From Octopus vulgaris (taxonomy: Eukaryota): 64,000 nt of DNA. The notes under the pieces are model-generated. The model worked only from the letters and a program-made list of their open reading frames with translations, searched no databases and had not been told where the DNA came from. The stretch spans positions 80,910,001 to 80,974,000 of the forward strand of contig OX597824.1 in the NCBI GenBank assembly GCA_951406725.2, given 5' to 3'. Shown one piece after another: positions 15,380 through 53,153 of this stretch. A program made the position numbers and the translations under genes. The first letter of the stretch is position 1; every line of letters begins with the position of its first letter.

Positions 15380-15625
15380 ATATTCTGTTGTGTCTGGGGA
15401 GAGTCATTCTCTTTTAGTGCCTTATTATTTAACACACTCACCGGTAAAATTTCCACTTATTTCTTATTTTTTATTTTCTAAGAGTCAAGACTATTGAAAA
15501 GGTTGCAAGACGCAACGGAAATTTTAGAAAATAAAAAATAAGAAATAAGTGGAAATTCTATCGGTGAGTGTGTTAAATAATATGGCACTAAAAGAGAATG
15601 ACTCTCCCCAGACACAACAGAATAT
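15380..15625. repeat. Fold-back element, about 102-bp inverted arms with a hammerhead-like motif in the loop
   Basis: 15380-15481 is the near reverse complement of 15524-15625; flanked by TA-rich microsatellite. Confidence 0.9.
15491..15527 (+). ncRNA. Minimal hammerhead-like motif, U3:A8 core variant
   Basis: CTA TTGAAAA G GTTGC aagac GCAAC GGAAATTT TAG; one substitution from GAA-AATT-T. Confidence 0.5.
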
Positions 15626-15802
15626 ATATATAAATATATATATATATATATATATATATATATATATATATATATATATGTGTATGCATGTATGTATGTG
15701 TGCGTTTATGTATCTATGTATGTATGGATGCATGGTTATAGAATCACTATATATATAGAAGCGTATGTCTTTGCCAGAACGTATTCAATAATATAGCGTG
15801 CT

Positions 15803-16326
15803 AGTGCTAGCATATTAAAATCTGAAGATACAGAAAAATTATATTACATACATATAAGAGGGATGACCACTACATGTACATCCATATGCTAGAAGTAGCA
15901 ATCAAATTTTAGCAAACGCCAGAACGTAAACGAGCAAGACAAATGAAAAGAAACAAAATATAGATTAATCACAAACTAGTTTCGCTATTACCACTTACGT
16001 TATTACTTACGTAATTGTCAGTAGCTCATCAGTGTGATCGTCTTTGCAAATGTAATTTGTAGAACTATACACGAGAATTGTTCAAGAATTTTTCCGTATC
16101 TTCAGATTTTAATATGCTAGACCACTGATTTTAATTTAATATTAATCAAATTGATATTCAAGTTTTCACCCTTCTTATTTTAAATTTAAATTTAAATAAC
16201 TATGTTCTCTAACCGGCAAAATTCACTGCAGAAATTTATTTTCTGCACAATTATTTTCGGTGTAATTGGTAGAACTGTGCACATGTTCAATCTCATGCGG
16301 ACGTTTCATGTATAGTTCTGCAAATT
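15803..16326 (-). mobile_element. Relative of the 518-bp hammerhead element with its second half inverted
   Basis: Shares cagtggtctagcatattaaa, cggttagagaaca and aaatgtaatttg with 22481-22998; 16088-16326 is in the opposite orientation. Confidence 0.75.
15968..16038 (-). ncRNA. Type I hammerhead ribozyme, canonical core
   Basis: Minus strand: ATCACA CTGATGA GCTA..TAGC GAA ACTAGT T TGTGAT; 6-bp helix I, palindromic helix III, GUU site. Confidence 0.85.
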
Positions 16327-16552
16327 GTGAGTGTTTATTGAGCGAAAACACCTAAAAGCTCCACGAGGCTCCGGCAGGGGGTGGTGATCCCTGTTGTACT
16401 CTTTCACCACTCTTTCTCCCACTCTTTCTTCTGTTGACCTGCTCGCTTAACCAGCGGGGTGGCGTCATTCGAAGGCTAAAACAATGCGAACGCATTGTGA
16501 CCAGCGATGTGTAACTACATCTGATGGACTGGTCGGTCACGTGATCACGTGA
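16325..16552 (+). mobile_element. Family C SINE (tail-2), 5'-truncated
   Basis: Matches 25976-26209; ends at (TA)n. Confidence 0.9.
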
Positions 16553-18448
16553 GATATATATATATATATGGGGGGGGGTGTCTGTGTTTGTCCCCTCACC
16601 GATAGAATAAGCACTAGGCCGACAAAGAATAATTCCTTTGGTCGATTTGTTCGACTAAATGCGGTGCTCCAGCATGGCCGCAGTGAAATGACTGAAACAA
16701 TTAAAGGAATACACGAAATAACATATATGTGTGTATATACCTACATGTGTATTACTATAATGTTCGTGCGCTTTTGTGTGCGTTTACGTGTGTTTGTACG
16801 TCCATTTGTGTTGTGTGCGCGTATGTGTATGTGTGTGTGTGTGTGTGCGCGTGTGCATGTTTGTGTGCGTGTATGTGGTATGTGTGAGTGAACGTGCGTG
16901 TTAGTAACCACGAGCTTTGTTGCAATCGTTGAAAAAGATCATTGAATTGATGGCATTTTGAATCTGACAATAGATTCTTTTAAACGAATCACAATCTTTT
17001 AAGAGTGTGTTGGAAGTATGTGTATATAAGTACGAATGTGCAACGAATGCACGTATTTGTGTGTATCTACACACATACACACACACACGCGCGCATATGT
17101 GTGTGTGTATATATATATATATATATATATATATAATATAATAATAATAATAATAATAATAATAATAATAATAATAATAATAACAAACGATTATTACGAA
17201 TTAGAGTAACACTACCTTAACACTGACTTATATATATATACATATATATACACACACACATATATATATATATATATATATATATATATATATATATATA
17301 TATATACATAAATATATATATACATATATATATATATATATATATATATATATATATATATATATATATATATGGAATTATCTTTGTATGCTCGTGGATG
17401 TGTCCGGGTTAATCATACACACACACACACACACACATACACATACAAACGCAAGCACATATACATGGTTAAAAAGAACACTTATTAAGAGAAAGACAGT
17501 CAGAGGTGAGTGAAAGGGAGAGGATTGTACGGACGTGTGTCATGTGTGCGCGTGTGTGTGTGTGTGTTTGTGTGAGTGTGTGTGTGTATCTTTGTGTGTG
17601 TGTGTGTGTAAACCTGTTTGCCTTATAAGCCTAGTAACATTTTCCCGAAATGTCAAAATGCGAAACGAGTTGGTAAGATCACAAAGATATGTCAAAATGT
17701 GATAAAAGCCTTTCGGCTTAATTTGTTCCCCTTGTATGCGGAGCCATCGTTTTAAACAAAACTTCAATTTTTATCTACTTTGTTTTTTTGGAGGTGGGAG
17801 GGTTGGGGGAGGATCTGGGGGTCATATTTTTGCATCTACTAATTGTATATATATATAGTTATATGAACGTATATACACGCATATGTAAATATGTATGTAT
17901 GTATGCATCTACCAATCCATGCATCCATCCATCCATCCATCTATCTATCTGTCTAACTGTATGTCTGTCGGTCTAATCTATCTGTCTGTCTGTCTGTCTG
18001 TCTGTCTGTCAGTCTTTCTATCTATCTATCTATCTATCTATCTATCTATCTATCTATCTATCTATCTATCTATCTATCTGTCTCTATCTATCTGTTTATC
18101 TATCTATCTATCTGTCTATCTATCTATCTATCTATCTATCTATCTATCTATCTATCTATCTATCTATCTATCTATCTATCTAATTTTCTCTTATATGCCT
18201 TATCTGTTTATGTATATTTTGAAGATATAGGTAAGATGACAGTATACGTAATGTGATCTTTTCAGAGCCAGAGCATTCTCTACGACCACTAGAATTTTAC
18301 CATTATACTGTGAGTTTCTATTCAATAGATTATCGTCCTTTCAACGGCGAAAGGGACACACAGAGGTTGCTTTCTTTCGTTCCCCTACTTCAAATTGTAT
18401 AGATTCATATACCTGTGGTTTTCAAACCATAAGGAAATAAATAATATT

Positions 18449-18850
18449 CTTTTCTTCTCTAGGCACAAGGCCCGAAAATTTGGGCGAGGGGGAAGGTCGA
18501 TTAGATCGACCCCAGTACGCAACTGGTACTTAATGTATCGACCCCGAAAGGATGAAATTCTAAGTCAACCTCAGCGGAATTTGAACTTAGAAAGTAAAGA
18601 CAGGCGAAATACCTATTTCTTTACTACCCACAAGGGGCTAAACACAAAGAGGACAAACAAGGACAGACAAACGGATTTAAGTCGATTGTATCGACCCCAG
18701 TGCGTAACTGGTACTTATTTAACCGACCCCGAAAGGATGAAAGGCAAAAGTCGACCTCGGTGGAATTTGAACTCAGAACGTAAAGACAGACGAAATACCA
18801 CTAAGCATTTTACCCGGCGTGCTAATGATTCTGCCAGATCGCCACCTTAC
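18449..18850 (-). mobile_element. Family A SINE dimer within one TSD
   Basis: TSD ggaaata(a/g)ataatatt at 18433-18448 and 18851-18866; internal junction cgaaatac|ctatttcttt near 18612. Confidence 0.9.
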
Positions 18851-51187: not shown

Positions 51188-51594
51188 CTCTTTACTCTTT
51201 TACTTGTTTCAGTCATTTGACTGCTGGAGCACCGCCTTTTAGTCGAGCAAATCGACCCCAGGACTTATTCCTTGTAAGCTGAGTATTTATTCTATCGGTC
51301 TCGTTTGCCGAACCGCTAAGTTACGGGGGCGTGAACACACCAGCATCGGTTGTCAAGCGATGTTGGGGGGAACAAACACAGACACACAAACATATGCACA
51401 GACATACATATATATCTATATACATCTATGTGACAGGCTTCTTTCAGTTTCTGTCTACCAAATCCACTCACAAGGCTTTGGTCGGCACGAGGCAATAGTA
51501 GAAGATACTTGCCCAAGGTGCCACGCAGTGTGACTGAACTCGGAACCATGTAGTTGGTAAGCAAGCTACTAACCACACAGCCACTCCGGCACCT
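51188..51594 (-). mobile_element. Family B SINE, full length
   Basis: Reverse complement of the 4923-5340 pattern. Confidence 0.9.
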
Positions 51595-51659
51595 ATAGGA
51601 CACAAGGAACCTATTTTTTTTATTTATATATGTGTAAATCCTGATATCCTCAACACAGT

Positions 51660-51890
51660 ATATAACAAATTTTCTGTATCTTGTAAGTATATTTATTAGC
51701 CTTTGTGCTCTCTACGTAATATATGTGCTGTTTCTAATAACCCATTTTCTGTATCTTGTGTATATATCTGTTAGCCTTTGAGCTCTCTACGTAATATATG
51801 CGCTGTTTTTAATAAAGAATTTTTCTTTATGTTGTCCTGGGGTTTTGATTAAGTATTTGACGGTAACTTCTTTGTGTTGAGCTTATGGAG
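51660..51890 (-). mobile_element. Possible RLE-type LINE extreme 3' fragment with a 75-bp tandem duplication
   Basis: Minus strand LLKTAHILRRE and LLETAHILRRE resemble the LLxTAxILR C-terminal motif; duplication at 51671 and 51746. Confidence 0.5.
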
Positions 51891-52427
51891 GAAAAATGAA
51901 AAGAATAGAGCTATTGTCATGCGCTTCCCGTATTTCCTTTTCTATTTAAGTATATATGTATAAATGTATGTGTGTGTATATATATCTATGTAGATGTTTC
52001 ATTCTTTTTTTATTTATCGCTCTTTCAGCTATTGTCGTCATTATTCAGACACATTAAGACACCACTCCCTGTTACTCTGTTAGATTTTTGGTAAAGTCAT
52101 TGTTTAAATAATTGTGTTGACGCTCTCTGTCACTTTTCCTTCCGTACCTACATCTAATATCTTTATTTTCCTGCCTCTCCCCAACTCTGTTATGAATTCA
52201 AATATACAATGTCTCCTTTCAAATTCCTCTCCCGTGACGACGAGGGAGCTTTTCACTCGGTCCTTCAACAGACTAAAAATAGCTCCCACTTCTACAACAA
52301 ACCACACCTCAATGTCTTTAAAAAAAGAGAGGGACATCCTGAACGTTCTGTGAAATATATTATTATGTATTACGGAGATGTACTTGCACAGCAAGTGACC
52401 TGATCTGAGATCGTGTGCTGAAACAAA

Positions 52428-53153
52428 ATCAATTGCAGCGTGGAATGTGTTTATAAGCCATTTAAAAACACACAAAAAACCGTTAGATTCACTTCAACAT
52501 TTAAATTTAATTTGTCAAAATATTTTCGTCGCTTTGAAACCGCAACCTGTTCACTGACGAAATTCCGTGCTGCATCTGAGAAAGCAACAGGTAGTTCATA
52601 ATATGTATGCATGTATGTATGTATGTATGTATGTATGTATGTATGTATGTATTATGTATGTATGTATGTATGTATGTGTGCATGTATGTTTACATGCGTA
52701 TATGTATGTATGTGTGCATGTATGTATGTGTGCATATATGTATGTGTGCATGTAGTACACATGTGCATACGCACATACTTATAAGCACGCATACATGCGT
52801 ACATACATGCATACGTACATAATGCATACTTACATGCACATATGCACGCATACTTACATGCACACATACATACATATATGCACATATAGATGCATAAATA
52901 CGAATATACGTACATACATACACCCATACATACATACATACCTACATCCATCCATCCATCCATCCATCCATCCATCCATCCATACATACATACATACATA
53001 CATATCATGAAATAATTGTTACCTTCTCAGATGCAGCACGGAATTTTGTCGGGGAACAGGTCGCGGTCTCAAAGCGATGAAAATATTTTGACATATTAAA
53101 TTTAAATGTTGAAGTGAATCTTAAATGGCTTATAAACACATTCCACGCTGCAA
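52428..53153. repeat. Inverted pair of a repeat carrying G3:C8 hammerhead-like motifs
   Basis: About 52428-52600 vs 53007-53153, separated by TATG then CATA microsatellite. Confidence 0.85.
52511..52562 (-). ncRNA. Hammerhead-like motif, G3:C8 core variant
   Basis: Minus strand: TTTcGTCA GTGAACA G GTTGC ggtttcaaa GCGAC GAA AATATT T TGACAAA; second copy on + at about 53045-53095 (core GGGAACA). Confidence 0.6.

What the first reader, a model, noticed from the sequence alone, without database searches (positions are those of the whole stretch)
15491..53095. Hammerhead core positions 3 and 8 covary across families (C-G, U-A, G-C)
Seen: canonical CUGAnGA in several motifs; UUGAAAA at 15494-15500 (+) and 25254-25260 (-); GUGAACA and GGGAACA at 52548-52554 (-) and 53052-53058 (+). 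Each is followed by a helix II, a GAA-like triplet, a short (near-)palindromic helix III and a closing helix I. Known: C3 and G8 form a tertiary Watson-Crick pair in the active hammerhead, and compensatory swaps can retain activity. Inference: three complementary 3:8 pairings in unrelated repeat families point to selection on the catalytic fold; a standard CUGAnGA search would miss these variants.
Basis: partly seen in the sequence, partly recalled or inferred. Interest (0 to 1): 0.85.

Follow-up and report, generated by a model that had tools for sequence, protein, structure and literature searches.

The report
Four-way core swap in retrotransposon ribozymes
Hammerhead-shaped self-cutting RNA motifs in repeats of this animal genome, most of them at the ends of Penelope-type jumping genes, show all four possible base pairs at one pair of positions in the cutting centre, three of them among close relatives, which likely reflects selection to keep the cutting shape, although cutting itself is untested.

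Summary
The four heptamers are where stated. [quoted passage not shown] The 3:8 covariation holds genome-wide. A scan of 1.2 Mb with positions 3 and 8 free gave 22 hits, 20 complementary, against 2.2 hits in shuffles. Family states: G3:C8 in 5,777 of 6,291 pattern matches; U3:A8 in two window families and two others.

Corrections: GGGAACA is a private U4G mutation. The two G copies are probably one inverted insertion. The U3:A8 family at 15494 and the G3:C8 family are related: with a C3:G8 family they form one PLE clade, so three pairings sit in one homologous motif. An old repeat elsewhere reads mostly A3:U8 (32 of 42), completing all four pairs.

U3:A8 in PLE hammerheads is published (2014). 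I found no natural G3:C8 or A3:U8, but two key papers were unavailable. Against strict current selection: a young ORF-intact sister family reads A9C, and a G3·G8 mismatch form is over-represented. Cleavage is untested. The scan noted G3:C8 before on other DNA of this genome. Verdict: new variant of a known kind.

The parts
15480..15621 (+). 3' end of PLE family U1 (direct arm), ending in (TA)n
   Evidence: upstream of longer copies lies a PLE endonuclease region (L326, L325)
15491..15527 (+). Minimal type I hammerhead, U3:A8. Helix I 15491-15493/15525-15527, core 15494-15500, extra G 15501, helix II 15502-15506/15512-15516, palindrome AAUU 15520-15523, U17 15524. This copy has A13G at 15518 and is likely inactive.
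   Evidence: 2,793 exact family matches with U3:A8
15329..15456 (-). Inverted, 5'-truncated second arm of the same U1 insertion, with a roughly 50-nt tail that the direct arm lacks
   Evidence: this arrangement is described for PLEs in PMC8557442
25188..25352 (-). 3' end of PLE family U2 (full unit about 4.4 kb with a 784-aa RT + GIY-YIG frame)
25228..25263 (-). Minimal type I hammerhead, U3:A8. Core 25260-25254, helix II 25253-25250/25244-25241 (one U·U mismatch in this copy), GAA 25240-25238, palindrome ACCGGU 25237-25232, A17 25231.
   Evidence: 3,607 exact family matches
52432..52597 (-). 3' end of PLE family G, left arm of a head-to-head pair
   Evidence: family frame of about 1,000 aa with GIY-YIG
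52513..52560 (-). Minimal type I hammerhead, G3:C8. Core 52554-52548, extra G 52547, helix II 52546-52542/52532-52528, GAA 52527-52525, palindrome AAUAUU 52524-52519, U17 52518. Core intact.
   Evidence: 5,777 exact family matches
53009..53153 (+). 3' end of PLE family G, right arm. Hammerhead core 53052-53058 with a private U4G at 53053; likely inactive.
16026..16032 (-). Canonical C3:G8 core of a hammerhead with long helix II and palindrome ACUAGU
22484..23416 (-). Two 415-nt direct repeats (99% identical), each with a canonical C3:G8 hammerhead (cores at 22698 and 23216) and a full helix III
45609..45615 (+). Canonical C3:G8 core of a minimal hammerhead of a multi-copy family

Best explanation
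The motifs are minimal type I hammerheads in the terminal repeats of Penelope-like retrotransposons, and positions 3 and 8 have changed together between families, likely because lineages that kept a Watson-Crick 3:8 pair could still cut their own RNA and spread. Shown: the motif lies 0.7-1.0 kb downstream of an RT/GIY-YIG frame in young copies of families U2 and G; family majorities are C3:G8, U3:A8, G3:C8 and, in an old repeat without a demonstrated ORF, A3:U8; three of these states sit in one clade. Inferred from published PLE work: the transcript is cut after position 17, probably as a dimer through the palindromic helix III and with help from the element's protein, which trims or circularises tandem transcripts. 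Position 8 contributes its 2'-OH rather than its base, so any pair can hold it. Selection acts on the transposing lineage, not on inserted copies; the window copies are decayed, and two of the four are likely dead. The constraint looks leaky, which would let lineages pass through mismatched intermediates.
For: Unbiased scan: 20 of 22 hits complementary versus 2.2 hits in shuffles. Twelve multi-copy families are all complementary; permutation p = 2.5e-4, or 7.6e-4 when one related U3:A8 family is dropped (the families are not fully independent). Families G, N3 and U1 form a clade (support 100/99; N3+U1 98/94). Their motifs share the extra G and show C:G, G:C and U:A at 3:8, with two further double-sided changes in helix II. 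Young copies with open frames keep the variant cores: G3:C8 in 28 of 30 loci, the other 2 holding no motif; U3:A8 in 31 of 44 loci, 12 without a motif and 1 aberrant. The young G motif folds as helix I plus helix II with a free core, and the young U2 homodimer folds as a double hammerhead. A3:U8 in 20 of 28 and 32 of 42 matches under two anchors with 3 and 8 free; reversed controls 1 and 0 (the two sets overlap). Literature: G8 acts through its 2'-OH (PMC6155905); C3G/G8C partly rescues a PLE hammerhead (PMC11167929).
Against: No cleavage data. The young N3 family (1,311-aa open frame, tandem 4.6-kb units) reads C instead of the conserved A9 in 21 of 21 young copies examined and in 97 of the first 100 of 3,599 matches, so a successful lineage spreads with an altered core. 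In family G the mismatch G3·G8 has 204 exact matches, more than G3·U8 and G3·A8 together (135), which suggests that a mismatched form was itself amplified. In the Anolis PLE, hammerhead mutants did not affect insertion in vitro, and PLE minimal hammerheads cleave slowly even as dimers. Predicted homodimers of the G, U1 and N3 motifs do not come out as clean double hammerheads. Helix I is only 3 bp in U1 and about 2 bp in the A3:U8 family. G3:C8 rests on one lineage; a survey limited to ACSSGT helix III found no second one.
Confidence: 0.72

Rival explanations
1. Historical relic: the 3:8 pair was selected in the ancestors of these families, but cleavage no longer matters and the motif is carried along with the terminal repeat.
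For: A9C dominates the young N3 family. The mismatched G3·G8 form is over-represented. Cleavage was dispensable for insertion in vitro in PAc, and no reads ended at its cut site.
Against: Young and old subfamilies of G and U2 differ in loop II and by a compensated helix II pair while keeping the core, so the fold was still being kept during recent subfamily turnover.
Confidence: 0.18
2. The hammerhead fold is kept for a non-cutting role, such as binding of the element's protein, dimerising two RNAs or positioning reverse transcription.
For: The Anolis motif cleaves only with the element's protein. Cervera and de la Peña leave other functions open. N3 tolerates A9C.
Against: The conserved letters are the catalytic ones (U4, G5, A6, G12, A13, A14, A15.1, U16.1 invariant across the clade), and the 3:8 pair belongs to the active conformation (own knowledge).
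Confidence: 0.08
3. Chance or AT-drift: the U3:A8 and other cores are decayed CUGAnGA copies or random matches in AT-rich DNA.
For: The four window copies are decayed and carry private changes. One A3:U8-like hit was single-copy, and loose patterns give as many reversed-control hits as real ones.
Against: The variants are the majority state of thousands of copies, including copies beside open frames. C3:G8 was seen in 0 of the first 100 non-G3 matches of family G, 1 of the first 100 non-U3 matches of U1 and 1 of 58 in U2. G3:C8 needs two transversions that do not lower GC.
Confidence: 0.02

Closest known systems
Minimal hammerheads (min-HHR) of metazoan PLE terminal repeats, including the U3-A8 variant of Schistosoma mansoni Cercyon elements (Cervera and de la Peña 2014, PMC4209133; read: parts 1-2 of 4 of the text, parts 1-2 of 3 of supplementary file 2; file 1 not searchable)
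   Same: Type I, short helix I, palindromic helix III, frequent extra base between 9 and 10.1, place downstream of the RT-EN frame, inverted pairs, U3:A8 covariation (about 1,300 hits there).
   Different: The extra base here is G (their consensus has H). The representative rows of their Fig. S3 that I read show no G3:C8 or A3:U8 core. Here three pairings occur in one clade.
PAc Poseidon hammerhead of Anolis (PMC11167929; read: passages)
   Same: PLE hammerhead in which C3G/G8C partly restores cleavage while the single mutants abolish it.
   Different: G3:C8 there is engineered; here it is the natural majority of a family with over 5,000 exact matches and open frames.
Natural core variants of Perreault et al. 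2011 (PMC3088659; read: passages)
   Same: First natural U3-A8 covariation.
   Different: Only U3-A8 is named in the passages seen; not tied to a retroelement clade.
Small PLE-associated hammerhead variants that cleave as dimers (Lünse, Weinberg, Breaker, PMC5785218; not held, seen only as a citation and through the review PMC6765202)
   Same: Same class of motif and dimer model, according to the review.
   Different: Could not be compared; it may already contain G3:C8 or A3:U8 examples.
Non-LTR retrozymes (Cervera and de la Peña 2020, PMC7229834; read: passages)
   Same: Two other repeats in this genome (L091 array; L114/L332 family) are roughly 360-nt tandem units with a type I hammerhead.
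   Different: The window's variant motifs belong to coding PLE lineages. The L114 family has U3:A8, a term not found in that paper's main text.

Membership tests
Penelope-like element (EN+) | [quoted passage not shown] | tested here: met
   U2: RVT_1 E 3.5e-8 and GIY-YIG. G: GIY-YIG E 1.8e-5 with no Pfam RT hit, but GAIG and YVDD motifs are present and some homologues carry PF00078. U1: endonuclease region only, 40-45% identical to G and N3.
Penelope-like element (EN+) | Pseudo-LTRs from partial tandems, inverted 5'-truncated copies, a tail, microsatellite targets | tested here: met
   L268: motif, frame, motif 4,386 nt apart. L320: 4.6-kb tandem. Inverted arms and tail in (TA)n in the window.
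Neptune or Nematis clade of PLEs | Cys-rich linker between RT and EN, and placement with named references | tested here: inconclusive
   CxxC linkers are visible in U2, G and N3 (feature from PMC8557442). No named reference was in my tree, so no clade name is assigned.
Minimal type I hammerhead | Core boxes with complementary 3:8, helices I and II, palindromic helix III, non-G at 17 | tested here: met
   Family majorities. Window copies 15494 (A13G) and 53052 (U4G) fail the core individually.
Minimal type I hammerhead | Site-specific self-cleavage after position 17, as a dimer | not testable with these tools
   Needs a bench assay. Folding gives a double-hammerhead dimer only for the young U2 motif and two canonical window motifs.
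Rfam hammerhead families | Match to a curated covariance model | tested here: inconclusive
   No hammerhead family among the 150 of 505 matches listed for the window; 355 weaker matches were not shown.
PLE membership of the A3:U8 repeat | Upstream RT/EN frame | tested here: inconclusive
   No PLE protein match in the 2 loci held. It is a multi-copy repeat at 69-81% identity with one inverted pair.

The most novel reading that the evidence does not exclude
One animal genome holds natural hammerheads with all four Watson-Crick pairs at 3:8 as family-majority states. They include an unreported G3:C8 ribozyme in a recently active retrotransposon and an unreported A3:U8 one, and three states evolved within a single PLE clade by passing through mismatched, cleavage-poor intermediates (G3·G8 and A9C forms still spreading). 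The clade would be a natural series for testing whether PLE mobility needs ribozyme cleavage.
Probability: 0.4. Interest if true: 0.65.

Novelty: new variant of a known kind. Interest (0 to 1): 0.5.

Why it matters
The role of the hammerhead in Penelope-like elements is an open question: it is nearly universal in canonical PLEs but slow in vitro, and it was dispensable in the one reconstituted system. Sister families with open frames and cores G3:C8, C3:G8 with A9C, and U3:A8 give a ready comparison between cleavage rate and mobility. Natural four-way covariation is also direct evolutionary support for the tertiary 3:8 pair. In practice, CUGAnGA descriptors miss more than 12,000 exact-pattern copies in three families here, so hammerhead counts in animal genomes are too low.

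Tried and rejected
Rfam scan of the window: dominated by microsatellite matches to miRNA models; no hammerhead among the 150 listed. A first A3:U8 candidate (L005:2537, minus strand) was rejected: genome matches covered only its flanks, not the core. A survey for a second G3:C8 family with ACSSGT helix III gave 75 matches against 155 reversed-control matches and no family with helix II. The matching A3:U8 survey showed no overall excess either (296 against 413); the family was recognised from the listing and then tested with positions 3 and 8 free. A register shift from CUGAUGA was considered for it and rejected, because the upstream letters are not CUG. L241 reads CUGAUGA in a U2 context but with a three-base shift and a broken helix I; it was treated as a decayed copy. 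Upstream frames were sought for 25 other motif copies with no PLE protein match, and none was found in 8 loci of the L114 family. Expression: no RNA holder listed; contigs cannot show RNA ends. The tool for DNA around database proteins was closed, so the 3:8 state of related elements in other animals is unknown. Lünse 2017, Przybilski and Hammann 2007 and Martick and Scott 2006 were not held. The first cross-family alignment had one wrong coordinate and was redone. MAFFT misaligned helix I of U1, so only 3:8 and helix II were counted.
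Full report
Setting. The window is G000:C11:80910001-80974000 in a 2.8-Gb genome, AT-rich and dense in microsatellites. It is probably an octopus: database protein P0001 is labelled Octopus vulgaris, and part of it matches G000 at 100%.

Observation. The four heptamers are at the stated places, and canonical C3:G8 motifs lie at 16032(-), 22698(-), 23216(-) and 45609(+). Searches of the genome with each site gave 3,015, 1,288 and 615 candidates, which are lower bounds. 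Alignments of 30 copies each show three families. Family G (52554 and 53052) reads GUGAACA, an extra G, a 5-bp helix II, GAA, the palindrome AAUAUU and U17. Family U2 (25260) reads UUGAAAA, a 4-bp helix II, GAA, ACCGGU and A17. Family U1 (15494) reads UUGAAAA, an extra G, a 5-bp helix II, GAA, AAUU and U17, with a 3-bp helix I. GGGAACA at 53052 is a private U4G change, and the 15494 copy has A13G. The two G copies face outward around a microsatellite and are probably one insertion.

Chance. I fetched 120 evenly placed 10-kb stretches and scanned all of them with positions 3 and 8 free. Of 22 hits, 20 were complementary (12 C:G, 7 U:A, 1 G:C). Five local dinucleotide shuffles gave 2.2 hits on average and reversed sequence gave 0; at the stricter score the result was 13 of 15 against 0.8. 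Seven C:G hits are probably one tandem array. A looser scan of everything then held gave 122 hits in 25 clusters. Twelve multi-copy families (11 from that clustering plus N3; single-copy hits left out, and one pair dropped because it was the same locus twice) all have complementary majorities: 7 C:G, 4 U:A, 1 G:C. The permutation p is 2.5e-4, or 7.6e-4 without one related U:A family. In one two-copy family one copy reads C·A, and the families are not fully independent.

Genome-wide counts of exact patterns, reversed controls 0 throughout. Family G: 5,777 G3:C8, 204 G3·G8, 135 G3 with A or U at 8, and 175 with another base at 3; that is 5,777 of 6,291. None of the first 100 non-G3 matches was C3:G8. 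U1: 2,793 U3:A8 against 150 with another base at 3. U2: 3,607 against 58. Changes at position 8 alone were not counted for U1 and U2.

What the repeats are. Copies end shortly 3' of the motif and are variably truncated at the 5' end. Upstream of long U2 copies lies a GIY-YIG domain. Young copies hold a 784-aa RT + GIY-YIG frame between two motifs 4,386 nt apart. Of 44 such loci, 31 carry UUGAAAA, 12 had no motif in the stretch and 1 was aberrant. Family G has a 5'-truncated open frame of about 1,000 aa with GIY-YIG; 28 of 30 loci chosen by the endonuclease carry G3:C8 about 1 kb downstream and 2 had no motif. G and U2 proteins share only short stretches at 23-30%. U1 is different: 2 of 11 longer copies reach an endonuclease region 40% identical to G. 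A third relative, N3 (the P0001 family; 1,311-aa open frame, 4.6-kb tandem units, 54% identical to G), carries the same motif with C3:G8. In a tree of the C-terminal region (68 rows: these three and 65 of the database proteins P0002-P0070; P0071-P0120 left out), G, N3 and U1 form a clade with support 100/99, and N3+U1 has 98/94 (the U1 row is one decayed copy). Their motifs align through the core, share the extra G, and show C:G, G:C and U:A at 3:8 with two more double-sided changes in helix II (six related rows, so the shuffle count there is not a probability). Contigs from four runs, coded as four organisms, showed no other letter at positions 3 or 8 of the G motif at the 5% level; this is weak support.

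A fourth pair. A loose survey listed a diverged repeat with AUGACUA (no excess over control overall). With 3 and 8 free, A3:U8 was read in 20 of 28 matches anchored on helix II (control 1) and in 32 of 42 anchored on helix III and helix I (control 0); the two sets overlap, and I counted them by eye from the listings. It has helix II AAUCG/CGAUU, GAA, ACCGGU and mostly A17, but only about 2 bp of helix I. It is an old multi-copy repeat (69-81% identity) with no ORF found in the 2 loci held. It is the weakest of the four states and does not occur in the window.

Mechanism. Shown: position, family states, clade and predicted fold. From the literature: PLE minimal hammerheads cleave weakly and as dimers, and are proposed to process tandem transcripts (PMC4209133; PMC6765202). 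G8 acts through its 2'-OH (PMC6155905). G8C costs about 10^5-fold and C3G partly restores activity (PMC8495972), also in a PLE motif that needs the element's protein (PMC11167929). Inferred: lineages that transposed kept a pair at 3:8, whichever it was, while inserted copies decay. Going from C3:G8 to G3:C8 needs a mismatched intermediate, so the constraint must be leaky or bypassed in trans.

Against. The young N3 subfamily has C at position 9 in 21 of 21 copies read and in 97 of the first 100 of 3,599 matches, while one older copy has A9. G3·G8 outnumbers the other two position-8 changes together, and many of its matches cluster on C16. Cleavage was not needed for insertion by PAc in vitro. 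Predicted dimers of G, U1 and N3 are not clean double hammerheads. No cleavage or expression was shown here.

Novelty. U3:A8 is published for natural hammerheads (PMC3088659, passages) and for PLE motifs, along with the extra base at 9/10.1 (PMC4209133; Fig. S3 rows, where I saw U3:A8 and one U3·G8 but no G3:C8 or A3:U8). Full-text searches for hammerhead with G3-C8 (1 paper, an engineered variant), C3G and G8C (2 papers, both engineered), A3-U8 (0), 'positions 3 and 8' (0) and octopus (nothing on this) found no natural G3:C8 or A3:U8. The library lacks most subscription papers, Lünse 2017 and Przybilski 2007 were not held, figures are not searchable, and supplementary file 1 of PMC4209133 could not be searched; any of these may bear on the claim. 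Earlier notes of this scan already mention the G3:C8 family and the three-pair sampling in this genome. I saw no mention there of the shared clade, A9C or A3:U8, but only the short listings were visible.

Verdict. A real feature with real covariation; a new variant of a known kind. Interest 0.5.

Noticed in passing
L320:846-852 and 5434-5440 (+); L340-L358; G000-wide pattern: The young, ORF-intact PLE family N3 carries A9C in its hammerhead core (97 of the first 100 of 3,599 matches); an older copy (L113) has A9. The motif lies upstream of the frame, so coding does not force the change.
   Followed up: partly
L360:1500 region (minus strand); G000:C1:9539180-9539420 and 40 further matches: Old repeat whose hammerhead-like motif reads mostly A3:U8, the fourth Watson-Crick pair; helix I is short and no ORF was found.
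   Followed up: partly
G000:C16: The mismatched G3·G8 form of family G has 204 exact matches, at least 21 of them in the first 6.6 Mb of C16; older G copies are also frequent on C16.
   Followed up: no
window 15480; L061-L090, L127, L266: Most top-scoring U1 copies start sharply at AAGAGTC, 14 nt before the core, whereas longer copies read ...GGACAG then AGTC. This could be a fixed RNA 5' end of a short derivative or a 3' splice site at helix I, as in Drosophila virilis Penelope.
   Followed up: partly
L114:8152, L332-L339: Young (97-99% identical) non-coding unit of about 360 nt, partly tandem, with a type I hammerhead and U3:A8; retrozyme-like. Its helix II resembles that of the C3:G8 tandem array at L091:3083-4154.
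   Followed up: partly
window 22484-22898 and 23002-23416: Recent 99%-identical direct repeat, 518-nt period, each copy with a C3:G8 hammerhead that has a full helix III and could cut as a monomer.
   Followed up: no
L268:3435-7821: The full U2 unit has what looks like an upstream reading frame, starting about 150 nt after the motif, in front of the 784-aa RT-EN frame; possibly a frameshifted two-frame element.
   Followed up: no
window 930-1333, 4146-4578, 18440-18863, 46908-47097, 48924-49548, 59551-59656 and others; also 13225-13608, 14426-14813, 37213-37594: Two abundant short interspersed repeats with many copies in the window; no hammerhead was seen in them and they were not identified.
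   Followed up: no
window 7672-8063 and 9534-9901: Long, very AT-rich inverted repeat (about 93% complementary arms, 1.3 kb apart), possibly a foldback or MITE-like element.
   Followed up: no
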